A DNA stretch of 64,000 nt, taken from assembly GCA_049319825.1 (NCBI GenBank), contig JBMORT010000006.1, forward strand, positions 166,340 to 230,339, given 5' to 3'. Positions 2,915 through 18,512 of the stretch are shown one piece after another (the first letter of the stretch is position 1; each line of letters opens with the position of its first letter). The DNA comes from Patescibacteria group bacterium (GTDB lineage Bacteria; Patescibacteriota; Patescibacteriia; UBA11705; DATKZF01). The notes beneath the pieces were generated by a model. It worked only from the letters and a program-made list of their open reading frames with translations. It had not been told where the DNA came from and ran no database searches. Both the position numbers and the translations under genes were made by a program.

Positions 2915-3042
2915 ATATTTGGAAATTAGTTGTTTAGAAATTGGAAAATAGTGTTAGAAAATAGAAGTTTGAAAATGGTAATTAAACTAATTTCAATTTT
3001 CCAATTTCCATTACTAATTTCTGTTTTCCAAACAACGATTTT

Positions 3043-4892: not shown

Positions 4893-4896
4893 AAAT

Positions 4897-6144
4897 TTAT
4901 TGTTTAAAACGCAGCGCTTCTATCGGATCGAGGTCAGCGGCCTTTTTCGCCGGATATAAGCCGAAAATGAGGCCGACGATAAAGGAAAACCCGACTGCCA
5001 AAATGATCGATACCACTGACAAGCTGAATGCCCAGCTATAGCCGGCTGATTGCGCTACGACGCTCACCAGATATGACAGGCCGGCGCCGAGGGCAAAGCC
5101 GATCGTCCCGCCCAGCAAGGTTATTATCATGGCTTCAAACAGAAATTGCGATAGAATGTCTGATTTTTTCGCGCCGATAGCTTTGCGCAGCCCGATTTCA
5201 AAAGTTCTTTCCACCACAGCAACGTACATTACATTCATAATGCCCACCCCGCCGACCAAAAGCGATATGCCGGCGATGGCGATCAACAGCAATGTGACGG
5301 CGCTGACGATGGTATTTATTAAATCTTGGGCCTCTTTCATGGTGGTGACCTGAAAATCTTCTTTTTCCGGCGTCGCCGCGTCATGGCGGTCGCGCATTAT
5401 ATATTTAATTTCCTCGGCGGTTTCATCGATGTTCGCGGGATCACTGACTTCGGTGATTATCGCCGAGACATAATTTATTCCGAGCATTTTTTTCTGCATC
5501 GTATTGATCGGAATGTATAAAAGATTATCGAAGTCGAAAAACATCACGCCGCCGCGCGGCGCCATTACTCCGATCACCCGATAATTGTCTTTGCCGATTT
5601 TTAAATTTTTTCCGATCACTTCATCGTCGCCAAAAAAACGATCTTTAACTTTCGCGCCGATAACCGCCACCTTGCCCGCGCCGCTGTTCGCTTCTTCGTC
5701 GAAAAAGCTGCCTTCGGCAATATTACTTTTATCGATCTCGATGTAGCTGGGGGATACGCCGTAAATCAGCAGCTGGGCTCGTTCATTGTCTCGCTTGATC
5801 ACTTGTTGTCCGATATTGGCGGCGTAAGCGTTTTTGATGTTGGGAATTTTTTGTATTTCTTTCATGTCATCAATCGTCAGTGTGGTGATCGCCACGCCGG
5901 TGGCCAGGGCGGTGGCTTGTTCAGTTTGCGATTTGCTGGAAGTGGGTACTTTGACTTCAATATTGATCCAGTTATCTCCAAAGGCGGCGAGTTCTCCCAT
6001 GATCAGGCCTTTCATGCCTTGGCCGGCGGAAATTACGGTAATGACCGCCGCTATGCCGATGACAATGCCTAAAATGGTCAGCAATGTTCTGGATTTGTTG
6101 ACCTTAAGGTTGGTGAGGGCAATTTTTAAATTTGAAACAATCAT
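4897..6144 (-). CDS. ABC transporter permease, MacB/FtsX family (YknZ-like), paralog 1
   Basis: N-terminal TM helix, a periplasmic MacB_PCD-like domain and a C-terminal FtsX 4-TM bundle. 415 aa. Confidence 0.85.
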   Translation of the reverse strand: MIVSNLKIALTNLKVNKSRTLLTILGIVIGIAAVITVISAGQGMKGLIMGELAAFGDNWINIEVKVPTSSKSQTEQATALATGVAITTLTIDDMKEIQKIPNIKNAYAANIGQQVIKRDNERAQLLIYGVSPSYIEIDKSNIAEGSFFDEEANSGAGKVAVIGAKVKDRFFGDDEVIGKNLKIGKDNYRVIGVMAPRGGVMFFDFDNLLYIPINTMQKKMLGINYVSAIITEVSDPANIDETAEEIKYIMRDRHDAATPEKEDFQVTTMKEAQDLINTIVSAVTLLLIAIAGISLLVGGVGIMNVMYVAVVERTFEIGLRKAIGAKKSDILSQFLFEAMIITLLGGTIGFALGAGLSYLVSVVAQSAGYSWAFSLSVVSIILAVGFSFIVGLIFGLYPAKKAADLDPIEALRFKQ

Positions 6145-6310
6145 GAAATTGAGTTTACGAGATTACCACGAAGTGGTCACTTGGTGACAAGATCCGACTT
6201 ACAAGATTATACAGATTACAAGATACGCAAGAGTATGCTAATCGAGGTCTTGATATCTTGTATAGCTGTACAGCGATCTGGTCCCGAAGGGATCCCTCGT
6301 AGATTCAAAA
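6145..6310. repeat. TACAAGAT / ATCTTGTA word-repeat array inside the efflux operon (between the two permease paralogs)
   Basis: GACAAGAT, TACAAGATTA and TTACAAGATA occur as direct copies and ATCTTGTATA inverted. A GGGATCCC palindrome is also present. Confidence 0.7.
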
Positions 6311-7552
6311 TTATTCATACCGTAGCGCCTCAATCGGATCGATTTTTGAAGTTTTGAGCGCCGGATAGAGTCCGAATACCAGTCCGATCAGTGATGACAC
6401 GCCCAATCCCAGCGCTATCGATTGCAGCGATACCACGAAATCCCAGTCGTAATTAAGATAGTTGGCGACCGCGGCCACCGCGCCGGAAAAAGCGGTTCCG
6501 ATAATAATGCCGATAGCGCCGGCGACTAAAGTTATTACCACGGTCTCCACCAAAAATTGGGTGATCAGGTGAATGTTTCTGGCGCCGACGGCTTTTCTCA
6601 GACCAATTTCCCTGATTCTTTCATTGACGGCGATCAACATGATATTCATGATGCCGATGCCACCGACGACCAAGGCTAAGCCGCCGACCGCAGCAAGAAA
6701 AAATTTGAGCGCGTCCGTTATGGTAGTGACAATGTCCAGGGCTTGAGCAGAAGATCGGACTGAAAAATCATCGTCGGTCGGGTCATCGATGTTGTGCTGT
6801 TCGCGCAATGTTTGTTTAATTTCTTCAATGCTTTGATCGACATACGCGGTATCGTCAATCTTTACTCTGATTAATGTGACATGGTTCACGCCGAGCAACA
6901 GTTTTTGCGCCGTTGCCAGCGGAATAAAAATTTTATTGTCCTGATTTTCCAGACCGACCACGCCGCGTTCCTTCATTACTCCGATTACCTTGAAAGCCGA
7001 CTTTTCGATTTTGATGGTTTCACCGATCGGATCTTGATCGCCGAATAAATCTTCGGCCATTGTCGGCCCCAAAACGACCATTCGGGAAATGCTTCTTTCC
7101 TCGGATTCGTCGAAGAATCGGCCTCGGGCGACTTCGGCTTCCTCGACGGTGGTGTAGTTGGCCGTGGTGCCGGTATAAGTTGATTGAGCGCTGACGTCTC
7201 GCCAGCTGATGGTGCCTTGGCCGGTAATGTAGGCCGCCGCGGCCAGCGCGTGCTCGACATTTTGTCTTTTTTCCAAGGCGAGCGCGTCTTCGTACTTAAG
7301 CGTGGTAATGATAATCCCGAATACCGACGCCGGCGGGCCGGACTCGTCGCTTGATCCCGGCAGGACGCCGATCAGATCAGTGCCGAAATTTTTAATTTGG
7401 TTGATAATCAGGCTCTGCGCGCCGGCGCCGACAGACATGATGATAATAATCGCCGTGATGCCGATAACCAGTCCGAGCATTGTTAAAAAAGAACGAACCT
7501 TATTCGCTCTTAAATTGTTGAGTGATATTTTTATGGCATCGCGAAATTCCAT
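6311..7552 (-). CDS. ABC transporter permease, MacB/FtsX family, paralog 2
   Basis: Same architecture as 4897..6144, 413 aa, with a C-terminal motif similar to the paralog. Confidence 0.85.
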   Translation of the reverse strand: MEFRDAIKISLNNLRANKVRSFLTMLGLVIGITAIIIIMSVGAGAQSLIINQIKNFGTDLIGVLPGSSDESGPPASVFGIIITTLKYEDALALEKRQNVEHALAAAAYITGQGTISWRDVSAQSTYTGTTANYTTVEEAEVARGRFFDESEERSISRMVVLGPTMAEDLFGDQDPIGETIKIEKSAFKVIGVMKERGVVGLENQDNKIFIPLATAQKLLLGVNHVTLIRVKIDDTAYVDQSIEEIKQTLREQHNIDDPTDDDFSVRSSAQALDIVTTITDALKFFLAAVGGLALVVGGIGIMNIMLIAVNERIREIGLRKAVGARNIHLITQFLVETVVITLVAGAIGIIIGTAFSGAVAAVANYLNYDWDFVVSLQSIALGLGVSSLIGLVFGLYPALKTSKIDPIEALRYE

Positions 7553-7773
7553 AAATTGATATTACAAGATGACGAGATTTACTGTACAAGATGGTACGAG
7601 ATGACTTTTATATCAGGGCGAAATTTATAATCCGAATACCCCGAAATGCGGCTAATGCAGAATTTAAAATTCGAGCTTCGATACCGATAACCATCATTGT
7701 TATGTGCTCCATCACGCGTTCGCGAAAGACGTGATCCATGCTCCATGATACGGGATCCAGGATATCATCGCTT

Positions 7774-8502
7774 TTACTTCACAAACTGTCCGTTTTTGGC
7801 GCTGCGGCGTGCGTGATCATGGTTGTCTTGCATGGCGATGCCATCGCGAACCATGATGATTCTTTCCGCGTATTCGGCCGTGTACTTTTCGTGAGTCACC
7901 AAAATTATGGTGTGCCCCTCGTCGTATAAATCTTCGATTAATTCCATGATTTTGCCGCCGGTTTTACTGTCCAGATTGCCCGTGGGCTCGTCGGCCAGAA
8001 TCAATGAAGGCTCATTGACCAGCGCTCGGGCGATGGCCACTCTTTGCTTTTCGCCGCCGGACAATTGGTTTGACAGGTAATTCATACGATGTTCCAAACC
8101 GACGGCAACGGCCGCTTTTTTGGCCATTGCCAGTTTGTTGCCCTTCTTCTTGCTATATATAAGAGGCAGTTTGATATTATCAATGACTGTGGTGCGGGGA
8201 AGCAGGTTAAAGCTTTGAAAAACAAAACCGATTTCATTGTTTCTCATGTCCGCTAGATCGTCGTCGGATAATTGGCTGACATCTTTGCCTTTGAATTTAT
8301 ATTTTCCAGCAGTTGGCCGATCCAGAAATCCGATGATGTTCATCAGCGTCGATTTTCCCGATCCGGACGGCCCCATAATGGCCACGAATTCGCCTTGGTT
8401 GATGGTGATATTGATGCCATGCAAAACTTTAGTAACAATATCTTCATTATGATATTCCTTTGTAATATCAATCATTTCGATGAGTGGTTTTGATTTAGCC
8501 AT
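7774..8502 (-). CDS. ABC transporter ATP-binding protein (MacB/LolD/YknY-like)
   Basis: Walker [10 protein letters not shown], signature [15 protein letters not shown] and Walker [12 protein letters not shown]. Confidence 0.9.
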
Positions 8503-8769
8503 AGATTTTTAGAAGGCTTGAGGGGGCTTAAGAGGGCTTGAGAAGGCTGAGAGGGAAAGAGGGCAAAACCGTATTGTCGATATTCGGAAATCGTAATCGA
8601 AGTTGGAAAATCGAAATTCGTTTCAAGCGAGTTTCGAATATCGAATTTCCAAACCAATTTCGAGTTTCGACATAACGAATTTCGTCTATCGTATTTCGTG
8701 TCTCGTATTTCGTCTTTCGTGTTTCGTGTTTCGTGTATCACATCTCGCATTTCTTATTCCAACAATCCG
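8503..8769. repeat. low-complexity spacer: GGCTTGAGRGGGC units, then CGAAWTTCG units, then a TTTCGTSTT x8 tandem run
   Basis: Visible directly. It lies between the HlyD-like gene and the ABC ATPase gene, inside the operon on the minus strand. Confidence 0.7.
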
Positions 8770-10587
8770 TTATTCATTTTTTATAAAGGTAATCACCTCA
8801 TCGCCTTCACTCAAACCGGAGACTATTTCGGTATTTGAATCGCCTTTTAGCCCGGTTTCGACCTCGACTTCTTCAATGTTGCCGTTCTTTAAGACGCGAA
8901 CGATTTTTTTACCGTTTTGGGAAATGATGGCGCGGTGCGGCACGGCCAGCACATTTTCTTTTTTATCAGTGGTAATGACAACATTGGCCGTCATGCCCGG
9001 CTTGATATCTTTTTCTGATTTTTCGGTGAAGATCAGTTTGATTTTATAATAAATCACCCCGGCGATTTCCGTTTCCGCCGGCTCAATGAATATTACCTTG
9101 GCCTGAAAAATCAAGTCGTCTCCATAAGCGTCGAGAGTAACCTCGGCGAGGTCGTCCAGTTCGACTTTGGCGATATCAGTTTCAGATATATCCAAATCGA
9201 TTTGGGGACTGTCCGTGATGATAGCGGTCATCGGCGCGCCAGCGGCAACATTTTCGCCGATTTGATGCTCCATTTTGGAAACGACGCCATCGACCGGAGC
9301 GATTATTTGAGTTTTTCTATAAGATGAACTGGCTGAATTTAAATTCGCCCGCGCGCGGTTGATTTCCGCTCTTAGCCCGGCCAAATCAACTTCTCTTGGG
9401 TCGGAGGTCAGCCGGTTGAGATCTGCCTCGGCGGCCAAAAGAGAGCTTTCTTTGGCTTTAACACCCAGCTTGGCCGATGCGATCGCATTTTCAGATTCTA
9501 CGGTAACGGTTTGCAGGTTTTGCGATGCCGCTTGATAGTCCTGATCGGCGAGATTATAGGAATTTATGGCCGAATTCAGGGCTTGTTTATAGGATTCCAA
9601 AGTACTGATACCGCTGCGGACGCTGGTTTTAGCGGTATCAACGTTAGCGACAAGCGCATCCAGCTCTGATTGCTTAAAATCAAAAGCTGTCCCGGCGCTT
9701 TCCAGCACCAGCCGCGTGCTGTATAAACATTTATCTATTTGCAAAAAAGCGGAGTCGACCAGATCGATCGCTTGATCGATATCGTTTTGCGGCGAGGTGA
9801 TTGTCAGTCGCTGATAATAATCATCGGCGTCATCGTAGAGTCGCATTGATTCCGGGCAATCGCGAAACGCATTGTTCCAGACCTGCCGGTCAATCGTTAA
9901 ATATTTTTCAAAATCATCATTAATACCGGGTTCGTCGAAGCCAATGACCGAGTCGGCGGTCTGTAGGCCATTAAAAATCGTCAGCAAACTGTTGCCGAGC
10001 TGGATGAAAATATTATTGTAAGCATCTTTGACTTTTTGGCTCAGCTCAGCCGAGTCGTCAATCAGTTCGAGATTAAGCTTGGCTTTTTCCAAAGATACCT
10101 CGGCGTTTTTAATATTTTGTTCCGCTGATTTGGTAACGGACAGCAAGTCATTTTGGGCGGTTTCCAGCGCCACCGATGCGATCGCCACATTTGCTTTGGC
10201 GATATCGATATCCTGGTTGGTGGCGCCGGCCAATTTTAAATTAAGCGCCGCTTGGGCAGCGTCCAGGGCGGCCTGAGCCGCGCTGACTGATGCCGCTTGA
10301 TCTTGCGACTCCAATTCAGCGATAATCGCTTGGGAGCTGACTTTTTGTCCTATCGAATAATTGATTCGGCCGACAATGCCGCTGGTCTGAAATCCCAGCT
10401 CAATATCCGGGTCGCTGACCACTTTACCGGTCTCGGAAACGGTCTGAAGCAGGGTTTGGCGTTCGGCCTTGACCGTATTGTATTCTTCTTGTTTCGGCGC
10501 CCTGGATTTAGCAATGATAGAAATCACGACGATAATTACGATGATTGCTAAAACAATCCAAAAGCTTTTTCTTTTGAATATTGACAT
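8770..10587 (-). CDS. periplasmic adaptor / membrane-fusion protein, HlyD/MacA/YknX family
   Basis: N-terminal TM helix, a very long coiled-coil hairpin region and a C-terminal beta-barrel/MPD region. It sits upstream of the ATPase and the two permeases. Confidence 0.8.
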   Translation of the reverse strand: MSIFKRKSFWIVLAIIVIIVVISIIAKSRAPKQEEYNTVKAERQTLLQTVSETGKVVSDPDIELGFQTSGIVGRINYSIGQKVSSQAIIAELESQDQAASVSAAQAALDAAQAALNLKLAGATNQDIDIAKANVAIASVALETAQNDLLSVTKSAEQNIKNAEVSLEKAKLNLELIDDSAELSQKVKDAYNNIFIQLGNSLLTIFNGLQTADSVIGFDEPGINDDFEKYLTIDRQVWNNAFRDCPESMRLYDDADDYYQRLTITSPQNDIDQAIDLVDSAFLQIDKCLYSTRLVLESAGTAFDFKQSELDALVANVDTAKTSVRSGISTLESYKQALNSAINSYNLADQDYQAASQNLQTVTVESENAIASAKLGVKAKESSLLAAEADLNRLTSDPREVDLAGLRAEINRARANLNSASSSYRKTQIIAPVDGVVSKMEHQIGENVAAGAPMTAIITDSPQIDLDISETDIAKVELDDLAEVTLDAYGDDLIFQAKVIFIEPAETEIAGVIYYKIKLIFTEKSEKDIKPGMTANVVITTDKKENVLAVPHRAIISQNGKKIVRVLKNGNIEEVEVETGLKGDSNTEIVSGLSEGDEVITFIKNE

Positions 10588-10663
10588 AAAGTAAAATTCT
10601 ATTATATTCTATCAGTTATTTTGATTTTTGTAAAATAAAATGGGTGTATGAAAACAGCTGGAG

Positions 10664-10691
10664 TTGACAATTTTTGTGCTTATTATATAAT
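10664..10691 (+). promoter_or_regulatory. near-consensus sigma70-type promoter (TTGACA-16-TATAAT)
   Basis: TTGACA at 10664-10669 and TATAAT at 10686-10691. It lies ~118 nt upstream of the ATG at 10810. The leader contains the hairpin CATCTTCCCAGGAAGATG. Confidence 0.45.
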
Positions 10692-10809
10692 TCTTATCCC
10701 TGATCGGTGATGTTCATCTTCCCAGGAAGATGAAATAACCGCCGGTCAAAGGAAGCGTCTCCCAGGAGGCGCGGCTTCAGAGAGCTTCTCAAACCAAAAG
10801 GAGGCCGAC

Positions 10810-11874
10810 ATGGCAGAGAAGCAAGTGCCTGAAGAACAGCAGTTTGAGTTCCTTAGACAAAAACTCCTCGGCAACGAGGCGTTCGGCCGAGTCCGCGGAA
10901 CGCTCGGGCTAATCCCGGATGACGAGCTCGGAATTTTGGGAACCGCTCTGGCAGCGTCAGAATCACCGACGAATTTTTGCCAGCGCTGGGACCAGGTCAG
11001 TTCTGATCTGCGCGTTTTCGGCAATATGTTGGCATGTTTCAATCGCGACGGCTGGGAAGCTGCTTCGCGTGAATTGACCAGAACTCTTCTGGACAAGACG
11101 TATCGACTTCCGGGCGAAACCGTACCGCTGCATGAAACAGAGCCGGTGACAGTGGTGGTGTTCGATTTTTCCAGAACGCTCACCATGATTCGCTGGATTC
11201 GTTGCGCGCATTGGGGCGACTTGAATGATTATATTAGAGAGATTAATGATGACAGGGAAAGTGTGGCGGTCAAGGGCGATTGGTTTGAAAGAAATATTCC
11301 GCGACAGCTAACCATTCAGCTATATGAAAGTTTTCCGGATTTGTTTAGGTATATCCGCGAGGGATCCGGGGAGTATGACTACTTGGATTTGGTACAATCA
11401 TACCGTAATCATGCGCTCGGTGATATTGACACGTCACAGTTATCGAAAATCGGATATTTTCTCAGGCTGGCCTGGCAGACATATAATGTGCGTTTTGCGA
11501 TAGCTGGACTTTGTCTCGGTTACTTTTGCCGCACTGATCAAGCTGAAGTTCTGTCTCGCTTTTCACGGCAGCAGCAAAATAGGATCGCCACCTGGACAGT
11601 GCGGCTGCCTAGGGTATTATTAGAGGAGCAGAAAATTTCTTCGTTATGGATCGGATTTCATCCGGAGCAGGTACATGAAGATTGGAAAAATGTCTCTAAT
11701 GTATATGCCAGCCTCGGCTGTTCAAATGGTTATGGAGTTGTCGTAATGAATGGTAAATATTATGATCCCTTACGGGATCACACGAGCCGCTACCATAAGA
11801 AATTCAGCTCCCAAAATGTAACTTTAGACGATATTAATGAGCAGCTGGCGTTCGAGCTGGAGATCGTCAGATAA
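10810..11874 (+). CDS. hypothetical protein (no recognised domain)
   Basis: 354-aa ORF with a strong RBS (AAAAGGAGG-6-ATG) and GC noticeably above its neighbours. Confidence 0.6.
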   Translation: MAEKQVPEEQQFEFLRQKLLGNEAFGRVRGTLGLIPDDELGILGTALAASESPTNFCQRWDQVSSDLRVFGNMLACFNRDGWEAASRELTRTLLDKTYRLPGETVPLHETEPVTVVVFDFSRTLTMIRWIRCAHWGDLNDYIREINDDRESVAVKGDWFERNIPRQLTIQLYESFPDLFRYIREGSGEYDYLDLVQSYRNHALGDIDTSQLSKIGYFLRLAWQTYNVRFAIAGLCLGYFCRTDQAEVLSRFSRQQQNRIATWTVRLPRVLLEEQKISSLWIGFHPEQVHEDWKNVSNVYASLGCSNGYGVVVMNGKYYDPLRDHTSRYHKKFSSQNVTLDDINEQLAFELEIVR

Positions 11875-11982: not shown

Positions 11983-12999
11983 CTATTTTTTCCAGAAATA
12001 TTTGATGAATTTCCAGCTGTATTTGACAATGACCAGCAATATCAGCAGATACAGAGCGATCTGCACGACGCGAAGGAGCACCGTGACCAGCGTGACCGTG
12101 ACGCCCTGAGCGACGTCGTTTATATCATTGACGAATTTTTTAATGGCCGCCTTCCAGGCGTCTTTTAGATTTTCACCGTCAATGAATTTATCTTCGATTA
12201 TGTTGACGTGAAAGTAAGTGTATTCCAGCCGGTCGAGCTGAACGGCCTTTGATCGCGAGATCATGTCGAGCTGGGAATTGACATTGATGCGCTCCTGTGT
12301 CAGCCTCTCGATAATGGCGATTTTGCTGTCGATAATTTTGGCCAGCGTCTCGACATCCTGGACGCGCGTGGCCAAGGCGGTGATATTGTCATAAGCGGCC
12401 ATGGCTTTGTTCAAAGTTTCATCAATCGACTCCAATTTCTTCTCGAGAATATCAATCTCGCTGGTATAGTCTTCGATTATGTTTTTAATGGTGTAGGTGC
12501 TCTCGGTAAGCTCTTTGGGATCGGTTGAATTGATGATGTCCAGAATCTGGCTGACGCTGTCTTTTTTTACTTTAAAGATGTAATTGCAGCCTTGATCATA
12601 CTCATTGGCGCTCTCGAAGATGACGTCCTCTCGGGCTTTGAGATCGGTGATGAGCGCGCAAGTTTTATCCAGCTCGCGGGTTTCGATCATCGCGTAATAT
12701 TCCGTCACTTCATATTCTTCCGCGTCGCTGCCGGTTGTGGTGCTCGGGACAGGAGCGATATTTCTTTCCGATAATCCGATAGGCTCCATGGCGGGATAGC
12801 CGATTCCACTTTTATAATCGTATCCGGTGGAGCTTTGAGGGTAAACATCATAGCCGTAATCTCTGTTTTTCAAGACAGTATTAATTGATGTGCCAATCAG
12901 GCGGAAAGCGACCACCAGCAAGAAAATGGCGACAATGGCGACGCCGGCGATTTTGAAAATATTCGCGGCGGTCAGATTGTGTTTTTTGAAGAAGTCCAT
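11983..12999 (-). CDS. DUF4349-like membrane protein (TM - coiled-coil - TM)
   Basis: N-terminal TM helix, a central coiled-coil and a C-terminal hydrophobic helix plus basic tail. This architecture is typical of DUF4349. Confidence 0.5.
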   Translation of the reverse strand: MDFFKKHNLTAANIFKIAGVAIVAIFLLVVAFRLIGTSINTVLKNRDYGYDVYPQSSTGYDYKSGIGYPAMEPIGLSERNIAPVPSTTTGSDAEEYEVTEYYAMIETRELDKTCALITDLKAREDVIFESANEYDQGCNYIFKVKKDSVSQILDIINSTDPKELTESTYTIKNIIEDYTSEIDILEKKLESIDETLNKAMAAYDNITALATRVQDVETLAKIIDSKIAIIERLTQERINVNSQLDMISRSKAVQLDRLEYTYFHVNIIEDKFIDGENLKDAWKAAIKKFVNDINDVAQGVTVTLVTVLLRVVQIALYLLILLVIVKYSWKFIKYFWKK

Positions 13000-13223
13000 A
13001 AATTTTGTATATATTAAATTTTAGCTGCTGTATACATTATATCAATTGGCAGGGAGGGAGACAATATCGTTTAAAATAAAAAAAGCCCAGAAGGCTTATT
13101 GGCTTGCCAGCCGTAGCTTCAGCGAAGGCTGGCTCGGGGGCAGGGATTTCCGCCTACGCCCTCGCTAGCTCGGGCTTCGGCGGACAGGCGAACCGGTTTA
13201 TCGTCGGGGTTCTCATCCCTGTA

Positions 13224-13250
13224 AATAAAAAAAGACCCGCAAGGTCGTCT
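13224..13250 (-). terminator. rho-independent terminator downstream of tRNA-Gln (minus strand)
   Basis: Minus-strand hairpin AGACC-TTGCG-GGTCT followed by TTTTTTTATTT. Confidence 0.5.
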
Positions 13251-13277
13251 GGCTCGCCACGTCGTTCGCGAACGACG

Positions 13278-13351
13278 TGGCTCGGGGACAGGGATTCGAA
13301 CCCCGATAGCCAGGACCAAAACCTGGAGTCCTACCATTAGACGATCCCCGA
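13278..13351 (-). tRNA. tRNA-Gln (anticodon TTG), CCA encoded
   Basis: Hand-folded. Acceptor stem TCGGGGA/TCCCCGA, D-stem GTCT/GGAC, anticodon stem CCAGG/CCTGG, loop TTTTGGT, T-arm CGGGG-TTCGAAT-CCCTG, discriminator G and a 3' CCA. Length 74 nt. Confidence 0.85.
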
Positions 13352-13634
13352 ATGTAAGAAATTGGAAATTGGAAACTAGAAATTATAATTTTAAAAATTT
13401 CAAAAACTACAAATATTATACTGGATAAAGAAAGTTTTGTCAAACAATTTTAGCTTTACTTTTCCCTTCGTTTATAGTAAAATTAGACTTGATTATATTG
13501 TGATTTGGATTAAATTATTTAAATTTTCAATTGCGTGATGAGAAAAATTAATAAATAAAAATCTCATTGAAACGCTAACAAGAATAGCTAATGTTCTAAA
13601 TGTTGGCACTGATGATTTAATAAAATAAAAAAAC

Positions 13635-14387
13635 ATGGCAGAACTAACCACAATTGAAAAACAGATTCTTGAAAAGCTCTTTCAAATGGGCGGTGGTTAC
13701 GTTTTAAATTTTTCTGACAGAACAATGGGTGAATTTTTCAGAGACGATGTTGGACTAGATATTTACACTCAGAAATACAATTACGCAAGCGGCTCAAAAG
13801 CCAATCGTATGCGTGGTCTATGGTTAAAAGCAGACAATAAAACGGTAGGAAACTCTATATTAAAACTTATTGAATACATTGAAAGTCAAATTTTGATTGA
13901 TGAACTTTCCCGTGATGATTTTCCCGAAGATAGAATAAAGGCCGCCAAAGAGATAGTTGACAAATTGTTAGGGAAAAAGAGTAAGCCAAAAGATAGTAAA
14001 TCGAAAGCTACTTTTAAAAATGGCAATATTAACATTACTTTACAAAAAGATATTTTTGATCATGTCCAAAAATTATTGAATAGCGGGCATTATTTCAATG
14101 CAGTCGAAGAAGCATACAAAATTGTTAGAAAAAAACTAAAAGATATTACTGGAAAAGAAAAAGCGACGGACGCTTTTAACAGTTCAAATTATGAAAAAAT
14201 TTTTGGCCATCAGCCTGTAGAGCAAGCTGAGAAAGATTTTTTTGAGGGCGTAAAATTTTTACATATGTCTATTCAATTTTTACGAAATGAGAAAGCGCAT
14301 ACGCCAGCGCGTGATTTGGACAAAAATTTAGCAATTCATTATATATCGCTCGCCAGTTTAGCGTATGATTTAATCACTAGAAAGTGA
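13635..14387 (+). CDS. HEPN-domain protein, TIGR02391/Abi-like (putative abortive-infection RNase)
   Basis: The C-terminal domain carries the Rx4H HEPN motif (FLRNEKAHT) in a TIGR02391-like context (GHYFNAVEEAYKIVRKKL). It is the first gene of the AT-rich island. Confidence 0.6.
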   Translation: MAELTTIEKQILEKLFQMGGGYVLNFSDRTMGEFFRDDVGLDIYTQKYNYASGSKANRMRGLWLKADNKTVGNSILKLIEYIESQILIDELSRDDFPEDRIKAAKEIVDKLLGKKSKPKDSKSKATFKNGNINITLQKDIFDHVQKLLNSGHYFNAVEEAYKIVRKKLKDITGKEKATDAFNSSNYEKIFGHQPVEQAEKDFFEGVKFLHMSIQFLRNEKAHTPARDLDKNLAIHYISLASLAYDLITRK

Positions 14388-14393
14388 ATTATT

Positions 14394-15422
14394 ATGGCAC
14401 ATAAACACTTACACAAGGCAGGCCGTGCGAAGAATGATGAGTTTTATACCCAGCTCGTTGACATTGAAAAAGAGCTTAAATACTACAAAGAACAATTCCG
14501 TGGCAAGGTTGTGTACTGTAATTGCGATGATCCTTTTGAAAGTAATTTTTTCAAGTATTTCGCTGCCAATTTTAATGCATTAGGACTCAAGAAACTCATC
14601 ACAACGAGTTACAATAAATCACCGATTGCAGGTAGACAGTTGCCCTTGTTTGAAATGGAGGGGTTGAAATCTATAAAGCCTATAGACGCAGAGCCCTACA
14701 AAATTGAAATAAATGAAGTATCCGATATTAACAACGATGGCGCGATAAATCTCGAAGACGTTGAACAATTAATAAAGCATGAGAAAAACATCGCAACCCC
14801 CTTGCGTGGTAACGGTGATTTCCGCAGTGACGAGTGTATTGAGCTACTCAAGCAAGCCGATATAGTCGTGACTAACCCTCCATTTTCACTATTCCGTGAG
14901 TATGTCGCCCAGCTTGTGAAATATAAAAAAAAGTTTTTGATTATAGGTAATACAAATGCCCTAACTTATAAAGAGATTTTTAAATTAATTAAAGAGAATA
15001 AATTCCGCACTGGCTATACCAATTTTAATGTAGGTATGTTTTTTGTTGTACCAGACGATTGGGAACATTTTCACCATGTCGATAAAGATGGCAAAAAAAT
15101 TGCGCGAGTCTCAACATCATGCTGGTTTACAAATCTTGAAGTTGAAAAACACAAGGAAGATATCATTCTTTACAAAAAATATACACCCGAAGAGTATCCA
15201 AAATATGACAACTATAATGCAATCAATGTAAATAAATACACAGATATTCCCTATGATTACACTGGGTATATTGGCGTACCAATCACTTTTATCGATAAAT
15301 ATAATCCTGAACAGTTTGAAATAGTGAGATTTCGAAAAGGTAATGATGATAAAGACTTATCAATAAATGGAAAATATACCTATTTTAGAATTATTATAAA
15401 AAATAAGAAAGTTAAAAAATAA
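14394..15422 (+). CDS. DNA N6-adenine methyltransferase, EcoRI-methylase-like family
   Basis: N-terminal KNDEFYTQ...VVYCNCDDPFESNFFKYF and catalytic motif IV TNPPFS. The resemblance to M.EcoRI is recalled from memory, not searched. Confidence 0.7.
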   Translation: MAHKHLHKAGRAKNDEFYTQLVDIEKELKYYKEQFRGKVVYCNCDDPFESNFFKYFAANFNALGLKKLITTSYNKSPIAGRQLPLFEMEGLKSIKPIDAEPYKIEINEVSDINNDGAINLEDVEQLIKHEKNIATPLRGNGDFRSDECIELLKQADIVVTNPPFSLFREYVAQLVKYKKKFLIIGNTNALTYKEIFKLIKENKFRTGYTNFNVGMFFVVPDDWEHFHHVDKDGKKIARVSTSCWFTNLEVEKHKEDIILYKKYTPEEYPKYDNYNAINVNKYTDIPYDYTGYIGVPITFIDKYNPEQFEIVRFRKGNDDKDLSINGKYTYFRIIIKNKKVKK

Positions 15423-15423
15423 T

Positions 15424-16533
15424 ATGAAAATAGAGCTTCATCAAATTCCAATTGGCAAAGTCATCGCCGGTTACAAGGATAGCGCCGAAGAAGGTGTCGT
15501 GGCTTATGACGGTAAGCTTGATATTCGCCCAAAGTATCAGAGAGAATTTGTGTACAATGAAAAACAGCGCAATGCCGTGATTGAAACCGTTAAGCAAAAC
15601 TTCCCGCTCAACGTAATGTACTGGATGGTTCGCGAAGACGGTGGCTATGAAATGCTGGACGGTCAGCAACGTACCATCAGTATTGGGCAGTATGTGAATG
15701 GTGACTTCTCGCTCGAAAATCGTTTTTTCCATAATTTAACACCTGAAGAACAAGATCAGATTTTGGATTATGAATTAATGATTTACTTTTGTGAAGGTAC
15801 GGATAAGGAAAGATTAGATTGGTTTAAAACAATCAATATAGCCGGTGAAAAATTAACCGACCAAGAAATTCGTAATGCGGTTTACACAGGGCCGTGGCTT
15901 TCTGACGCTAAATTGAAGTTTAGCAAAACACAGTGTGCGGCATATCGTTTAGCGACCGACGGCGGAAAGTTAGTCAGCGGTTCTCCAATCCGTCAAGAAT
16001 ATTTAGAAGCCGCGCTTTCATGGATAAACAACGGCGAAGTTGCGGATTACATGGCGAAGCATCAGCACAACAAAAATGCTAATCAGTTGTGGGAATATTT
16101 CCAAGATGTCATTGCGTGGGTGCGTAAAACTTTTCCAAATTACCGAAAAGAAATGGCAAGCGTAAATTGGGGCGAATTATACAACAAATTCAAAAAAAAG
16201 AAGCTAAACGCCGAAAAACTAGAAGCCGAAATTGCCAAGTTAATGCAGGATGAGGATGTAACAAAAAAATCTGGCATATATCCTTATGTACTCACAGGAG
16301 AAGAAAAACACCTTTCTATTCGCGCGTTCACCGACAAAATGAAGCGGGAAGCATACGAGCGGCAAAAAGGTGTTTGCCCTTGGTGCAAAAAAGAGAAGAA
16401 AGAAAAACAAAAATGGGAAATTGAAGAAATGGAAGCCGACCATATTAAGCCTTGGCACGAGGGCGGAAAAACAACCGCAGAGAATTGCCAAATGTTATGC
16501 AAACAAGATAACCGAACTAAATCGGGGAAGTAA
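15424..16533 (+). CDS. DUF262 (ParB/GmrS-like, DGQQR motif) N-domain fused to a C-terminal HNH nuclease
   Basis: DGQQRT motif and a C-terminal CPWC...ADHIKPWHEGGKTTAENCQMLCKQDN HNH motif. The start is 2 nt after the methyltransferase stop. Confidence 0.8.
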   Translation: MKIELHQIPIGKVIAGYKDSAEEGVVAYDGKLDIRPKYQREFVYNEKQRNAVIETVKQNFPLNVMYWMVREDGGYEMLDGQQRTISIGQYVNGDFSLENRFFHNLTPEEQDQILDYELMIYFCEGTDKERLDWFKTINIAGEKLTDQEIRNAVYTGPWLSDAKLKFSKTQCAAYRLATDGGKLVSGSPIRQEYLEAALSWINNGEVADYMAKHQHNKNANQLWEYFQDVIAWVRKTFPNYRKEMASVNWGELYNKFKKKKLNAEKLEAEIAKLMQDEDVTKKSGIYPYVLTGEEKHLSIRAFTDKMKREAYERQKGVCPWCKKEKKEKQKWEIEEMEADHIKPWHEGGKTTAENCQMLCKQDNRTKSGK

Positions 16534-16640
16534 AAATTGGAATAGGGTGTGTATAATTTTCTTTACATGACTCTTGACAAAAAATTCTACATCGCTTACA
16601 ATGGAGGTGTAAGTATTATTAAATAATTTCCATTAACACT

Positions 16641-16853
16641 ATGGATAGAAAACGAAAAGCAGACCACGAAAAAATAAAGAAAATTTTAGAAAAACGTGGT
16701 TATAAAAACGGTGAACCACCACGTGGATATGAGGTGCACCACATCAAACCACTTGCAGAAGGCGGAAAGGATACACCTAAAAATATTCGGGTAATAAAAA
16801 TAATAAAACACAAACAAATACACGCTAATCGTAAAGAAAGAAGTAAAATTTAA
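16641..16853 (+). CDS. mini HNH endonuclease (70 aa)
   Basis: The motif EVHHIKPLAEGGKDTPKNIRV...H resembles the HNH core of the upstream gene (HIKP-EGGK-T--N). Confidence 0.6.
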   Translation: MDRKRKADHEKIKKILEKRGYKNGEPPRGYEVHHIKPLAEGGKDTPKNIRVIKIIKHKQIHANRKERSKI

Positions 16854-16855
16854 TT

Positions 16856-17623
16856 ATGTTTGGAAAATTTATCCAACATCAACGTACCAAGCGAAATATG
16901 ACACAGGAATATCTTGCGTCAGAGCTTGATATGTCTCGTCCCACTTATTTACAGATTGAACGCGGGGAGCGAGAGCTTACGATTTCCGAAGCAAAAAAGC
17001 TGGCGGCTCTTTTTGACATGCCGCTTGAAAATTTTCTTGCTGCCAGAGAACCAAAACGAAGTGTTGCCATTGAAAAAGAATCGGTAAAAAAAACTGAAGA
17101 CTTGCAGATTCGCGTTACAGAAAAAAACCTTGATAAATTCAAGCAGGTTTTGCTTTATGTTTTGAATAAGGTTGGTGGCAAGCCAAATGTTGGTGAAACA
17201 GTTTTGCATAAACTTCTTTATTTTATCGATTTTGACTACTACGAGAAGTTTGAAGAAAACTTAATGGGTGCAACTTATATCAAAAATCATCACGGTCCCA
17301 CTTCTATCGAGCTCGGCACAATTATAGAGGAAATGCAGACGCAGGGTGAGTTAGAAGCTGTAAAGAGTCAGTATTTTAAGTATTTACAAAAAAAGTATCT
17401 GCCGCGAAAACGTCCTAATCTCGATATTCTTTCCGCGCGAGAAATTGAGCACATTGATGATGTACTTGCTCGTCTTTCAGACAAAAATGCTGCGGAAATA
17501 GAAAATTATTCACACGAGGACATTCCTTGGAAATCTGCGCAGGACGGCAAGCCGCTTTCTTACGAGAGCGTTTTCTACCGCGACGAGCGATACTCCGTAA
17601 GAAACTATGACGATAAACTTTAA
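16856..17623 (+). CDS. HTH-XRE + Panacea/SocA (DUF4065) domain protein, PanA-type antitoxin candidate
   Basis: N-terminal XRE HTH (MTQEYLASELDMSRPTYLQIERGER). Panacea-like core VGGKPNVGETVLHKLLYFIDFDYYEKFEENLMGATYIKNHHGP. Starts 3 nt after the mini-HNH stop. Confidence 0.65.
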   Translation: MFGKFIQHQRTKRNMTQEYLASELDMSRPTYLQIERGERELTISEAKKLAALFDMPLENFLAAREPKRSVAIEKESVKKTEDLQIRVTEKNLDKFKQVLLYVLNKVGGKPNVGETVLHKLLYFIDFDYYEKFEENLMGATYIKNHHGPTSIELGTIIEEMQTQGELEAVKSQYFKYLQKKYLPRKRPNLDILSAREIEHIDDVLARLSDKNAAEIENYSHEDIPWKSAQDGKPLSYESVFYRDERYSVRNYDDKL

Positions 17624-17951
17624 TGAGCTTCCCGAATTTCAAAAAGAATTCAAGCGGCTTGGCAAAAAATATAAATCTCTCCCCGATGACTTGCAAGAAT
17701 TCTGCAATGTGGTTTCTGTTGTTCCGCTTGGCAATAGTAAACATTTTAACATCATTACCCAAACTAAACTTTTTTGCATTATAAAAGCTCGCTTGTTCTG
17801 TAGATATTTGAAAGGAACCTCGCTCCGCATTATTTATTCTTATTTTGAGCAGAAACAATGTATTGAATTTATTGAATTATATTTTAAAGGTGATAAAGAA
17901 ACCGAAGATCGTGATAGAATAAAAGAATATTTGAAAAATAATCAGAACTAA
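17607..17951 (+). CDS. RelE/ParE-superfamily toxin-like protein
   Basis: 114 aa with a ...KARLFCRYLKGTSLRIIYSYFEQKQCIEFIELYFKGDK pattern. It overlaps the Panacea gene by 17 nt. Confidence 0.45.
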   Translation: MTINFNELPEFQKEFKRLGKKYKSLPDDLQEFCNVVSVVPLGNSKHFNIITQTKLFCIIKARLFCRYLKGTSLRIIYSYFEQKQCIEFIELYFKGDKETEDRDRIKEYLKNNQN

Positions 17952-18113
17952 CCCCACCCACCACCCTATAATTTTGTAGCCCCGCAAAAAAATCAGATCG
18001 CTCCCCTGCAGTCTTTTTTCATTTGTAAAAGTAAATCAACAGAAACTTATCTCGGCTTGTCTCGCTTGTTCAGTATGCTATAATCAAATAGCCTAATCAT
18101 TAACAAAAAATTT

Positions 18114-18512
18114 ATGAAAGGATTCTTCGCAAACATTGAGCGGGACACGATGGAAAATGAAAATTTCCGCAAAGTATTATACACCTCAAAGCACAGCCAG
18201 CTGGTTTTGATGGCTTTGCAGCCAAATGAAGAAATCGGCATGGAAGTGCATCCGGACAATGACCAGTTTTTCCGGTTTGAAAAGGGAACTGGCAAAGTCA
18301 TTATTGACGGCAATGAATATGAAGTCACTGACGGCTCAGCCATCGTGGTGCCGTCCGGCGCTCAGCATAATGTCATAAACACATCAAATGCTGAGCCTCT
18401 TAAGCTGTACACCATATATTCACCGGCGCATCATAAGGACCAAATCGTGCGCGCGACCAAAGAAGAAGCCATGGCGCAGGAAGCGGAATTTGACGGGATG
18501 ACCACTGAATAA
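18114..18512 (+). CDS. cupin-domain protein
   Basis: Cupin motifs GMEVHPDNDQFFRFEKGTGKVIIDG and VVPSGAQHNVINT. The true start may be the internal Met at about 18150. A TGCTATAAT extended -10 lies upstream. Confidence 0.75.
   Translation: MKGFFANIERDTMENENFRKVLYTSKHSQLVLMALQPNEEIGMEVHPDNDQFFRFEKGTGKVIIDGNEYEVTDGSAIVVPSGAQHNVINTSNAEPLKLYTIYSPAHHKDQIVRATKEEAMAQEAEFDGMTTE

What the first reader, a model, noticed from the sequence alone, without database searches (positions are those of the whole stretch)
13129..13300. 20-nt direct repeat of the tRNA-Gln 3' end located ~125 bp downstream of the gene
The tRNA-Gln 3' end (plus-strand reading TGGCTCGGGGACAGGGATT, 13277-13297) recurs as TGGCTCGGGGGCAGGGATT at about 13129-13148. 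That is 19/20 identical and in the same orientation. The copy lies between the tRNA terminator and a second minus-strand terminator (13070-13095).

Duplicated tRNA 3' ends are the classic footprint (attL/attR) of site-specific integration. Here the repeats are too close to bracket an island. This may be the scar left after excision of an element, or a nested att site.

The defence island lies on the other (5') side of the tRNA.
Basis: seen in the sequence. Interest (0 to 1): 0.5.

Follow-up and report, generated by a model that had tools for sequence, protein, structure and literature searches.

The report
Reduced tRNA-Gln-tailed structured RNA cassette
The repeated tRNA end is real. It is the tail of a shrunken copy of a conserved folded RNA, absent from Rfam, that sits behind glutamine-tRNA genes in many Patescibacteria; it is not a simple scar left by an excised island.

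Summary
The repeat exists. The 19-mer at 13278-13296 (last 19 nt of tRNA-Gln-UUG, minus strand) recurs at 13130-13148 with one mismatch, and 0 of 100 shuffles give two matches. It is the core of a diverged ~80-nt duplication covering the tRNA 3' end, a trailer hairpin and a terminator (59/83 identical).

The DNA between the copies is not random. It is a reduced (95-nt) member of a ~165-nt structured RNA family, here called "E". I found E in one GTDB genome contig (L006) and 17 true metagenome contigs (an 18th, L023, was a chance match), usually right after tRNA-Gln plus a terminator. E also occurs in tandem arrays and at secondary loci.

E looks like the tRNA-Gln T-arm plus the acceptor 3' strand, split in the T-loop by a ~137-nt body of four covarying helices. 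35 of 45 modelled pairs show compensatory changes.

- No Rfam family matches E.
- No phage or plasmid match was found.
- No protein gene is consistently adjacent.
- No integrase was found among the window ORFs scanned.

One E pair is 94% identical where the flanking gene is 65% identical. The closest relative (L029) carries the same reduced element without the tail.

Best reading: a tRNA-Gln-derived RNA cassette docked behind its parent gene. Recombination between the shared 3' modules would copy, move and erode such cassettes. The function of the RNA is unknown.

The parts
13415..13443 (-). Sigma-70-type promoter TTGACA-17-TATAAT (12/12) about 60 nt upstream of tRNA-Gln. It is the only strong promoter-like site upstream of the whole tRNA/mini-E unit on this strand.
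   Evidence: homologous promoter in L029
13278..13351 (-). tRNA-Gln (anticodon UUG), CCA encoded; A7-U66 in the acceptor stem.
13278..13296 (-). Repeat copy 1: tRNA positions about 58-76 (3' part of the T-loop, T-stem 3' strand, acceptor 3' strand, G73, CCA).
13256..13281 (-). Palindromic trailer hairpin H0 (GCCACGTCGTTCGCG/CGCGAACGACGTGGC) overlapping the CCA end.
   Evidence: I4
13224..13246 (-). Terminator-like site T1: weak 5-bp stem at 13234-13246, then a T-run. It separates the tRNA from mini-E.
13130..13224 (-). Mini-E: a reduced member of the E structured-RNA family. It keeps the 5' T-arm-like block, the P5 hairpin, the GGCGGAA junction and the tRNA-like tail. Helices P2-P4 (~95 nt) are replaced by ~28 nt.
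   Evidence: CM R1 hit 13128-13224, 38.5 bits, E about 5e-8; alignment; own fold z = -2.3
13204..13222 (-). 5' block ACAGGGAUGAGAACCCCGA. It corresponds to the T-stem 5' strand plus T-loop of the tRNA; its CAGGGAU pairs with AUCCCUG of the tail region (helix P1).
   Evidence: (I3)
13158..13175 (-). P5-like hairpin GCCC-GA-GC-UA-GC-GA-GGGC, with the tandem G.A internal loop typical of the family.
   Evidence: (helix 6)
13130..13148 (-). Repeat copy 2: the 3' tail of mini-E (AAUCCCUGCCCCCGAGCCA). It carries C66, as does the tRNA of the closest relative L029. It is unpaired beyond P1 in the predicted fold.
13106..13133 (-). Trailer hairpin H (GCCAGCC ... GGCTGGC; loop GTAGCTTCAGCGAA on the + strand). 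It is homologous to the hairpin that directly follows the tRNA in L029.
   Evidence: (I13)
13073..13097 (-). Terminator-like site T2 (stem 13083-13097 plus T-run), homologous to T1.
   Evidence: (D4)

Best explanation
The second 19-mer is the 3' tail of a reduced copy of a tRNA-Gln-derived structured RNA cassette, here called 'E'.

A full E (~165 nt) has three parts:
- It begins with a forward copy of the tRNA-Gln T-stem 5' strand and T-loop (GGGAUUCGAAC).
- It continues with a ~137-nt body of four helices. The junction sequences are invariant or nearly so (AAGCGAG, GAGCG, GACAACGAAG, GAGGCGGAA), and P3 and P5 carry tandem G.A loops.
- It ends with the rest of the T-loop, the T-stem 3' strand and the acceptor 3' strand of tRNA-Gln (AAUCCCUG[U/C]CCCCGAGC, sometimes plus CA), followed by its own terminator.

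The two tRNA-like ends pair (P1), so E is a T-arm split in its loop by the body, with a free acceptor-like 3' tail.

Shown:
- E is a conserved structured RNA family, most probably read on the tRNA strand.
- It is docked in tandem behind tRNA-Gln(UUG or CUG) genes.
- The window copy is a member that has lost P2-P4.
- The tRNA and the cassette share a duplicated '3' end + trailer + terminator' module.

Inferred:
- The cassette arose from a partial tRNA-Gln duplicate.
- Recombination between the shared 3' modules (unequal crossing-over or gene conversion, possibly a site-specific enzyme acting in trans) generates arrays, moves copies to tRNA-like pseudo-sites and erodes them. This would explain why the tail sequence tends to follow the neighbouring tRNA.
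- In the window the RNA is made by read-through of the weak terminator T1 from the strong tRNA promoter, and it ends at T2.

Speculative: the RNA acts as a mimic of the tRNA-Gln T-arm and 3' end for some tRNA-binding factor.
For: Family and location:
- The window repeat is significant.
- Exact-pattern scans for the tail plus 8 upstream element-specific bases found a genome locus (L006) and 18 metagenome contigs. L023 lies in coding sequence and is a chance match.
- In 9 loci E follows tRNA-Gln and a terminator. In L010/L018 it is tandemly repeated.

Structure:
- Covariance model R1, built from 6 seeds, recovers 18 copies at E<1e-6, including the window copy (38.5 bits).
- 87.5% of cells pair, against ~37% when partners are slid. 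35/45 pairs show changes on both sides. 0/500 shuffles reach the observed percentage paired, number of pairs or cells with compensatory change, or covariation score; 18/500 reach the count of further pair types.
- G.U outnumbers A.C 18 to 7 on the tRNA-sense strand.
- The model aligns real tRNA-Gln T-arms to E's two ends, with the 137-nt body as an insertion between A58 and A59.

Selection:
- L007 and L011 E copies are 93.8% identical. Nearly all differences are compensatory. The flanking aaRS gene is 65.5% identical and the tRNA itself 64/74.

Recombination at the shared module:
- In L010/L018 both the tRNA and E carry C66; elsewhere both carry U66.
- In L010/L018, tRNA 3' end plus terminator and E tail plus terminator are identical over ~75 nt. 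In the window the same module is duplicated at 71% identity.

Relatives:
- L029 (neighbouring protein 69% identical) has the same mini-E blocks at the same place.

Negative searches:
- No Rfam match.
- No shared neighbouring protein.
- No integrase near E in L011, or among the window ORFs scanned.
- No copy in IMG/VR, phage or plasmid collections.
Against: - There are no expression data.
- No promoter-like site is called directly upstream of E in the window, and a terminator precedes every E.
- The window copy lacks more than half of the family structure, and L029's copy lacks the tail and is not detected by the model. The local copies may therefore be decaying and non-functional.
- P1 and the tail are invariant in my sample partly by construction, because the metagenome scan fixed those 21 bases.
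- The covariation counts come from an alignment fitted to the model.
- The L016 second copy has a truncated tail (…CCCTGTCCC|aggt) and a head that carries only …CCCGAGC. These look like reciprocal junctions of a site-specific crossover rather than the product of homologous duplication.
- E being more conserved than the tRNA in L007/L011 could also reflect recent horizontal spread.
Confidence: 0.5

Rival explanations
1. E cassettes are miniature, non-autonomous integrative elements, comparable to integron cassettes or cis-mobilisable elements. The unit [tRNA 3' end copy + terminator + E body] would insert by site-specific recombination into the T-loop/3' end of tRNA-Gln genes or tRNA-like pseudo-sites, using a recombinase encoded elsewhere. 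The 19-mer pair in the window would then be attL/attR of such a mini-element, and the structured RNA would be its cargo or a cofactor.
For: - There are tandem arrays with identical 212-bp units in L010/L018.
- Near-identical [terminator + E] units occur at two places 8.5 kb apart in L016, after different 'heads'.
- The L016 second copy has reciprocal chimeric junctions: the head keeps only CCCGAGC, and the tail stops at CCC.
- L021 and L022 share the unit and the downstream flank but differ upstream.
- E sits behind both the UUG and CUG isoacceptor genes, which share the 3' end.
- The window tail has C66, like the relative's tRNA, while the window's own tRNA has U66. The trailer after the tail is the one that follows the tRNA in L029. 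This is what is expected if the distal copy is the displaced original 3' end.
- The identity block (T-loop to 3' end) corresponds to the T-loop class of integrase target sites. This last point rests on my own knowledge of the tRNA integration-site literature.
Against: - No recombinase was found in the scanned ORFs of the 64-kb window or next to any E.
- No E was found in viral or plasmid collections.
- The junction that would be attP (GGCGGAAAUCCCUG) lacks the inverted half-sites with 7-bp spacer that the T-arm provides.
- L029 shares the same reduced element, which indicates vertical inheritance in this clade.
- Strong compensatory evolution points to long-term selection on the RNA rather than recent mobility.
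Confidence: 0.3
2. Classical scar, the first reader's reading: a genomic island once integrated at the tRNA-Gln 3' end by a tyrosine integrase and was later deleted or excised imprecisely. This left the distal partial tRNA copy and ~130 bp of meaningless remnant.
For: - The direct repeat of the tRNA 3' end is real.
- tRNA-Gln is a real island hot spot in Patescibacteria. L044, L045 and L047 have different defence cargo ending in a decayed tRNA-Gln(CUG) 3' end, whereas L046 has the bare tRNA.
- The window copy is truncated relative to the family.
Against: - The intervening DNA is homologous to a conserved, covarying RNA family found without islands in many genomes.
- It is conserved in blocks in L029, at a divergence where the neighbouring protein is 69% identical.
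- It has its own terminator, homologous to the tRNA's.
- No integrase remnant was found.
Confidence: 0.1
3. Chance similarity, or convergent G+C-rich hairpin/terminator sequence with no shared origin.
For: Intergenic regions here contain several G+C-rich hairpins, for example the GTAGCTTYAGCGAAGG hairpin family.
Against: - 0 of 100 shuffles give a second match.
- The same tail ends homologous elements in about 17 other contigs.
- The similarity extends over ~80 nt.
Confidence: 0.01

Closest known systems
attL/attR direct repeats of tRNA-integrating genomic islands, and integrase-less derivatives (cis-mobilisable elements, CIMEs)
   Same: - It is a direct repeat of the tRNA 3' end running from the T-loop to CCA.
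- The intact tRNA is proximal and the partial copy distal.
- Tandem accretion occurs at the same tRNA.
- No recombinase lies inside the bracketed DNA, as in CIMEs.
   Different: - The bracketed DNA is only 130-190 bp.
- It is a conserved structured RNA with compensatory evolution.
- The 5' end of the element also copies the tRNA (T-stem 5' strand plus T-loop).
- No helper integrase has been identified.
tRNA-like non-coding RNAs (tmRNA; bacterial Y RNA YrlA)
   Same: - It is a stable-looking RNA that reuses tRNA modules (T-arm, acceptor end, sometimes an encoded CCA) around a large non-tRNA insertion.
- It is encoded as a stand-alone gene with its own terminator.
   Different: - There is no acceptor 5' strand, so no acceptor helix is predicted.
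- The insertion is in the T-loop, not in place of the anticodon arm.
- The identity elements are those of tRNA-Gln (U1-A72 side, G73), not tRNA-Ala.
- ARAGORN and Rfam do not recognise it.
Integron gene cassettes
   Same: - Small promoterless units occur in arrays.
- Each unit ends in a conserved recombination-site-like sequence that can fold.
- Copy number is variable.
   Different: - The cargo is an RNA fold, not an ORF.
- The ends do not fit the attC R''/R' consensus (RYYYAAC / GTTRRRY) when read directly.
- No IntI-type integrase was seen.
- The array is anchored at a tRNA gene.
sRNAs derived from tRNA 3' trailers (e.g. 3'ETS-leuZ of E. coli; from my own knowledge)
   Same: It is encoded immediately downstream of a tRNA and is probably transcribed from the tRNA promoter.
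   Different: - E is separated from the tRNA by a terminator.
- It is much larger.
- It is highly structured.
- It itself ends in a tRNA-like 3' module.

Membership tests
tRNA-targeted integrative element (attL/attR pair) | Direct repeat identical or nearly identical to the 3' part of the tRNA gene, in the same orientation, downstream of the tRNA | tested here: met
   18/19 identity, 13278-13296 vs 13130-13148; 0/100 shuffles
tRNA-targeted integrative element (attL/attR pair) | Integrase/recombinase gene within or next to the bracketed DNA | tested here: not met
   Only 129 bp lie between the repeats. Pfam scans of 30 window ORFs (10 neighbouring ones plus 20 of the larger ORFs further along the window) and of the L011 genes found no integrase, recombinase or transposase. 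Several large ORFs were not scanned: 640-1425, 1997-8502, and five downstream of the region, including the 1820-aa and 2810-aa giants.
tRNA-targeted integrative element (attL/attR pair) | Empty site in relatives (tRNA followed directly by the distal flank) | tested here: inconclusive
   In L029 the hairpin/terminator that follows the window's distal copy follows the tRNA directly. But L029 also carries the same mini-E further on. L002, L004 and L005 have the same tRNA 3' half and no E, but their downstream flanks are not syntenic with the window's.
tRNA-targeted integrative element (attL/attR pair) | Excised circular form / alternative junctions in reads | not testable with these tools
   No access to raw reads.
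E structured-RNA family (defined here, model R1) | Significant match to the covariance model | tested here: met
   38.5 bits, E about 5e-8, model positions 1-171. tRNA T-arms alone score ~20 bits.
E structured-RNA family (defined here, model R1) | P1 closing helix from the 5' GGGAU(U/G)(C/A)GAAC block and the 3' GGCGGAAAUCCC block, then the tail UG(U/C)CCCCGAGC | tested here: met
   Window has ACAGGGAUGAGAAC ... GGCGGAAAUCCCUGCCCCCGAGCCA.
E structured-RNA family (defined here, model R1) | Internal helices P2, P3, P4 (three-way junction) | tested here: not met
   In the window copy these are replaced by ~28 nt with a different small hairpin (GAACC/GGUUC). This is why I call it a reduced derivative.
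E structured-RNA family (defined here, model R1) | P5 hairpin with tandem G.A loop, preceded by CGAAG | tested here: met
   CCGAAG-GCCC GA GC UA GC GA GGGC at 13158-13175.
E structured-RNA family (defined here, model R1) | Position: downstream of tRNA-Gln and a terminator, followed by its own terminator | tested here: met
Any Rfam 15 family (incl. tRNA, tmRNA, group I intron, SRP, RNase P, 6S, riboswitches) | Match at or near the gathering score | tested here: not met
   Only the three tRNAs pass in the window. Nothing better than E about 1 lies over 13060-13240. Nothing lies over full-length E in 9 loci at E<=1.
Group I introns of Patescibacteria tRNA genes (PMC13011429) | Intron inside a tRNA gene (anticodon loop), group I core | tested here: not met
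   E lies outside the intact tRNA. There is no tRNA 5' portion upstream of it and no Intron_gpI match. The paper's abstract describes anticodon-loop insertions at position 35/36.
Integron attC / cassette | R''/R' core sites and an IntI integrase | tested here: not met
   The ends read TTCGAAC ... GGAAAUCCC and do not fit the consensus (direct reading). No integrase was found.
MITE / REP-type repeat | Terminal inverted repeats plus target-site duplication, many dispersed copies | tested here: inconclusive
   P1 could be read as 5-9-bp terminal inverted repeats, but no short target duplication is seen. There is only one copy in the 64-kb window and two in the 12.9-kb L016 locus.

The most novel reading that the evidence does not exclude
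E is a previously undescribed class of tRNA-Gln-derived RNA found in Patescibacteria. It is a T-arm split by a ~137-nt catalytic or protein-binding body, with a free acceptor-like tail. It would both function as a tRNA-Gln mimic (a decoy or regulator for a tRNA-binding enzyme, toxin or phage factor) and propagate as a self-contained RNA-gene cassette that docks at tRNA-Gln 3' ends. That would make it an RNA-gene analogue of integron cassettes. The window would hold an eroded member next to a defence island.
Probability: 0.2. Interest if true: 0.8.

Novelty: new variant of a known kind. Interest (0 to 1): 0.55.

Why it matters
A partial tRNA repeat next to a tRNA is normally taken as the footprint of an integrated or excised island. 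Here that rule of thumb misleads. In one branch of the candidate phyla radiation, the repeat marks a conserved structured RNA built from pieces of tRNA-Gln.

If the family is real and expressed, it adds a new tRNA-derived RNA class to organisms with very small genomes, where every retained non-coding element is likely to matter.

It also offers a tractable case for how tRNA genes spawn new RNA genes, and how such genes spread and decay by recombination at the shared 3' module. Practically, island-finding tools that rely on tRNA-fragment repeats would mis-call these loci.

Tried and rejected
- **Known RNA families.** Rfam searches gave nothing: gathering threshold on the window, E-value mode on 12950-13450 and on nine loci with full-length E.
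- **tmRNA, permuted tmRNA or odd tRNA.** ARAGORN finds none at E.
- **Phage attP.** The tRNA 3' end with CCA and the element tail are absent from IMG/VR. The four viral hits to the CCA-less 3' end are complete phage tRNA-Gln genes in tRNA clusters, with no E.
- **E carried by phages or plasmids.** A scan for the E 5' motif in IMG/VR and blastn against phage and plasmid records found nothing.
- **A partner protein.** All-against-all comparison of neighbouring ORFs in 17 loci found no family shared across loci, apart from ordinary synteny.
- **An island between tRNA-Gln(CUG) and E in L011.** The 6.8 kb between them encodes ordinary housekeeping-type genes and no integrase.
- **TnpB/IscB omega-RNA-like guide RNA.** A scaffold plus a 17-19-nt 3' 'guide' is an attractive analogy. 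I rejected it as the main reading for three reasons. No nuclease gene is present. The first bases of the would-be guide are paired in P1. And the restored tRNA gene would be self-targeted.
- **Target-site duplication (retro-element or SINE model).** At the L016 second copy the head and tail are not duplicates of each other.
- **Pseudoknot between the C-rich tail and the P4 loop.** It is possible in one subfamily (GGGGG loop) but not conserved in the other.
- **An E-like remnant at the island end in L045/L047.** A similarity seen by eye was not supported by the model (score about 0), so I make no claim.
- **More orthologous loci.** Homologues of the 338-aa gene and the cupin yielded only one informative locus, L029. 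The others lacked the tRNA-Gln linkage, or the contigs ended at the variable region.

Full report
**1. The observation**

The window carries three tRNA genes. tRNA-Gln(UUG) lies at 13278-13351 on the minus strand, with its CCA encoded. On the plus strand, its last 19 nt read TGGCTCGGGGACAGGGATT (13278-13296). The only other match in the 64 kb at up to three mismatches is TGGCTCGGGGGCAGGGATT at 13130-13148, in the same orientation with one mismatch. The shuffled expectation is 0.01, and no shuffle out of 100 gave two matches.

The copy lies between two minus-strand terminator-like sites, with stems at 13234-13246 and 13083-13097.

The 19-mer is only the best-kept part of a longer, diverged duplication. 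The tRNA 3' end, its trailer hairpin and its terminator (13222-13300) align with the second copy, its trailer hairpin and its terminator (13073-13152) at 59/83. The period is 148-149 nt.

**2. What lies between the repeats**

The window comes from a Patescibacteria (CPR) genome. The same contig is in a Logan assembly, and the neighbouring protein is named by NCBI as from a 'Patescibacteria group bacterium'.

A genome-collection scan for the 3' half of this tRNA returned five Patescibacteria loci. In one of them (L006, Magasanikbacteria), the tRNA and its terminator are followed by a ~170-nt G+C-rich element. That element ends in GGCGGAAATCCCTGTCCCCGAGC, the same tRNA-like tail preceded by the same non-tRNA bases as in the window.

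A metagenome scan for GCGGAAATCCCTGNCCCCGAGC gave 18 contigs. All but one (L023, inside coding sequence) carry a homologous element, which I call E.

E occurs in several settings:
- In nine loci it follows a tRNA-Gln gene plus a terminator. The anticodon is UUG in six and CUG in two; in L019 the tRNA runs off the contig end.
- In L010/L018 it is tandemly repeated, as units of 212 bp.
- In L011, L013, L015, L016 and L021 it follows a short decayed tRNA-like 'head' plus a terminator.
- In L022 it follows another E-like element with a different tail.

**3. E is a structured RNA**

I built a covariance model from six seeds with a hand-drawn structure: P1, a P2-enclosed three-way junction with P3 and P4, and P5. 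It recovers 18 copies at E<1e-6 in the DNA held. These include a copy the pattern search had missed (L016 3512-3681) and the window copy (13128-13224, minus strand, 38.5 bits, E about 5e-8).

On the resulting alignment:
- 87.5% of cells form standard pairs, against ~37% when the 3' partners are slid by 1-3 columns.
- 35 of 45 pairs show changes on both sides.
- None of 500 shuffles reaches the observed percentage paired, number of pairs or cells with compensatory change, or covariation score. 18 of 500 reach the count of further pair types.

Two caveats apply. The alignment is fitted to the model. And P1 and the tail cannot vary much, because the scan fixed them.

G.U pairs outnumber A.C 18 to 7 on the tRNA-sense strand, which mildly favours that strand. 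P3 and P5 contain tandem G.A internal loops that are replaced by Watson-Crick pairs in some members.

The junction sequences are invariant or nearly so: AAGCGAG, GAGCG, GACAACGAAG and GAGGCGGAA.

No Rfam family matches E, and ARAGORN sees no tRNA or tmRNA there.

**4. E is built from tRNA-Gln**

The model also hits genuine tRNA-Gln T-arms at ~20 bits. Their G50-A58 aligns to E's 5' block (GGGAUUCGA) and their A59-C74 to E's 3' block. The whole 137-nt body is treated as an insertion between them.

E is therefore the T-arm plus the acceptor 3' strand of tRNA-Gln, split in the T-loop. There is no acceptor 5' strand, so the tail (UGUCCCCGAGC, with or without CA) is predicted to be single-stranded.

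The tail tends to follow the neighbouring tRNA. In L010/L018 both the tRNA and E have C66; elsewhere both have U66. The window is the exception, with U66 in the tRNA and C66 in the tail.

**5. Selection and mobility**

L007 and L011 carry E copies that are 93.8% identical. Almost all differences are compensatory pairs in P3 and P4. The adjacent aaRS genes are 65.5% identical in DNA, and the tRNA-Gln(CUG) genes match at 64/74. That means either strong purifying selection on sequence and structure, or spread between lineages, or both.

Several observations point to rearrangement at the shared 3' module:
- There are tandem arrays in which 'tRNA 3' end + terminator' and 'E tail + terminator' are identical over ~75 nt (L010/L018).
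- L016 holds two near-identical [terminator + E] units 8.5 kb apart. In the second, the tail stops at …CCCTGTCCC and the head has only …CCCGAGC. This is what reciprocal junctions of a crossover inside the shared sequence would look like.
- L021 and L022 share the unit and its downstream flank but differ upstream.

Several searches for a carrier or helper came back empty:
- No protein family recurs next to E.
- The 6.8 kb between tRNA-Gln(CUG) and E in L011 has no integrase.
- None of the 30 window ORFs I scanned with Pfam is a recombinase.
- E and its tail are absent from IMG/VR, and from phage and plasmid records.
- The viral hits to the tRNA 3' end are whole phage tRNA-Gln genes.

**6. The window copy and its closest relative**

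The window copy keeps four features of the family:
- the 5' block (ACAGGGAUGAGAAC);
- CGAAG plus the P5 hairpin (13158-13175);
- the GGCGGAA junction;
- the tail.

P2-P4 are replaced by ~28 nt that form a different small hairpin. It folds better than shuffles (z = -2.3).

The nearest available relative is L029, whose neighbouring 342-aa protein is 69% identical. It has the same gene order: cupin, promoter, tRNA-Gln, then the homologue of the 338-aa gene, with a PQQ-repeat gene between the tRNA region and that homologue.

In L029 the tRNA is followed directly by the hairpin and terminator that in the window follow the tail (GCCTTCGCT…GGCTGGCA.GCCAATAAGCC…). After that comes the same reduced element, with the blocks AAGGATGAGAACCCCGA, TTCGCCTG, GCCGAAGC and GCGTAGGCGG. 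It lacks the tail and trailer hairpin, and its own terminator resembles the first one.

Both genomes therefore descend from a state like tRNA - [3' module + terminator] - mini-E - [3' module + terminator], and have eroded it differently. L029's tRNA has C66, like the window's tail.

These facts fit either of two histories: an old duplication with divergence, or a cassette that brought a replacement 3' end and displaced the original. I cannot separate the two with the data available.

**7. How it probably works**

Shown:
- There is a strong promoter (TTGACA-17-TATAAT, 13443-13415) for the tRNA.
- A weak terminator, T1, follows.
- Mini-E comes next, then a hairpin and T2.

Inferred:
- Mini-E is transcribed by read-through.
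- In full-length members the P1/T-loop block and the free tail present a partial tRNA-Gln look-alike.
- Recombination between the two 3' modules copies, converts or deletes cassettes.

The function of the RNA is unknown. A mimic or decoy role for a tRNA-Gln-binding factor is a guess.

**8. Comparison with known systems**

- *Against a classical att scar.* The repeat geometry fits, but the integrase and meaningless-remnant features do not.
- *Against tRNA-like RNAs (tmRNA, YrlA).* The reuse of tRNA modules fits. The absence of an acceptor helix and the T-loop insertion do not.
- *Against integron cassettes.* Arrays of small promoterless units with foldable end sites fit. The site consensus and the integrase do not.
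- *Against the group I introns recently described in Patescibacteria tRNA genes (PMC13011429).* Those sit in anticodon loops and are recognised by Rfam, so they are a different thing.

My literature searches found no description of this element. That is not proof that none exists.

**9. Verdict**

What it brackets, however, is a reduced member of a conserved tRNA-Gln-derived structured RNA family, absent from Rfam and from the papers I searched, and not the scar of an excised island.

The local copy is probably decaying. The family it points to is the interesting part.

Noticed in passing
window 13445-18055: A low-GC (about 36% vs 47%) defence island sits exactly between the divergent promoters of tRNA-Gln and the cupin gene (18114-18512). 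It holds a Hypoth_Ymh protein (13635-14387), an EcoRI-type adenine methylase (14394-15422), a GmrSD_N+HNH nuclease (15424-16533) and an HTH+SocA/Panacea protein (16856-17623). Relatives L029 and L005 have the cupin next to tRNA-Gln without it. No flanking repeat and no integrase were found, so how it got there is unexplained.
   Followed up: partly
window 13106-13133; L005 1935-1995; L010 4205-4240; L018 4875-4905: A small hairpin with a conserved 14-nt loop (GTAGCTTYAGCGAA on the + strand) has stems that differ but stay complementary (GCCAGCC/GGCTGGC, CCACC/GGTGG, TCACC/GGTGA, TCCGCC/GGCGGA). It recurs in intergenic DNA of several Patescibacteria. This may be a second conserved RNA or DNA motif. 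It gave no Rfam match in the window stretch searched (12950-13450).
   Followed up: partly
L044-L047 (and L048-L055), DNA upstream of the cupin gene: In Paceibacterota strains with an identical cupin protein, the upstream DNA takes three forms. It is a bare tRNA-Gln(CUG) in L046, a 1193-aa helicase-type gene in L044, or an HTH + N6_N4 methylase module in L045/L047. The two cargo-bearing forms each end in a decayed copy of that tRNA's 3' end. Many contigs break there. This is a classical tRNA-Gln island hot spot for defence genes.
   Followed up: partly
window 4897-11874: A 354-aa ORF of unknown family plus a HlyD/ABC/FtsX-FtsX (MacAB-like) efflux cluster lies between the 338-aa gene and a 231-aa ORF. 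In L029 the homologue of the 338-aa gene is followed directly by a 231-aa glycosyltransferase, ThiI and Ddl. Equating the window's 231-, 385- and 305-aa ORFs with those three rests on size and order only. This is a second insertion or deletion difference close to the tRNA.
   Followed up: no
L011, L015, L016, L021 (about 40 nt before the terminator that precedes E); L013 and L022 have a related form: A conserved short 'head' (TTATTAGCCACCCACGTCCGAAAACTGTCCCTCCAAGCGAGC) replaces the tRNA in front of [terminator + E]. It looks like a decayed tRNA-Gln 3' half or a body-less E. It is conserved across lineages whose E copies belong to different subfamilies. Why it is kept is unexplained.
   Followed up: partly
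L022 1290-1465: An E-like element has the same P1/T-loop start (CGGGAUGAGAAA) but a different body and a different tRNA-like tail (AAUCCCGCCCUCGGAGC; still A72 and G73 as in tRNA-Gln). It sits in an array with a standard E. The family is therefore probably wider than the tail-anchored search could show.
   Followed up: no
L003 4760-4850: This locus is syntenic with L010/L018 upstream of tRNA-Gln and has no E. It does have an ~85-nt G+C-rich piece containing GCGACGAACGAGC and a 9-nt repeat of the tRNA end plus flank (GAGCCACGT). It may be a further-decayed E.
   Followed up: no
window 57595-58233 (-): A 212-aa protein matches the mTERF domain (Pfam E 1e-22). That family is best known from organelles and is unusual in a bacterium.
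   Followed up: no
window 30193-35655 and 39677-48109: Two giant ORFs (1820 and 2810 aa). I did not examine them.
   Followed up: no
L005 vs L017: The 540-aa gene next to E in L017 is on the opposite (5') side of tRNA-Gln in L005. There the tRNA is inverted relative to that gene, and a ~190-nt G+C-rich block lies on its 5' side. This suggests inversions around tRNA-Gln/E loci.
   Followed up: no
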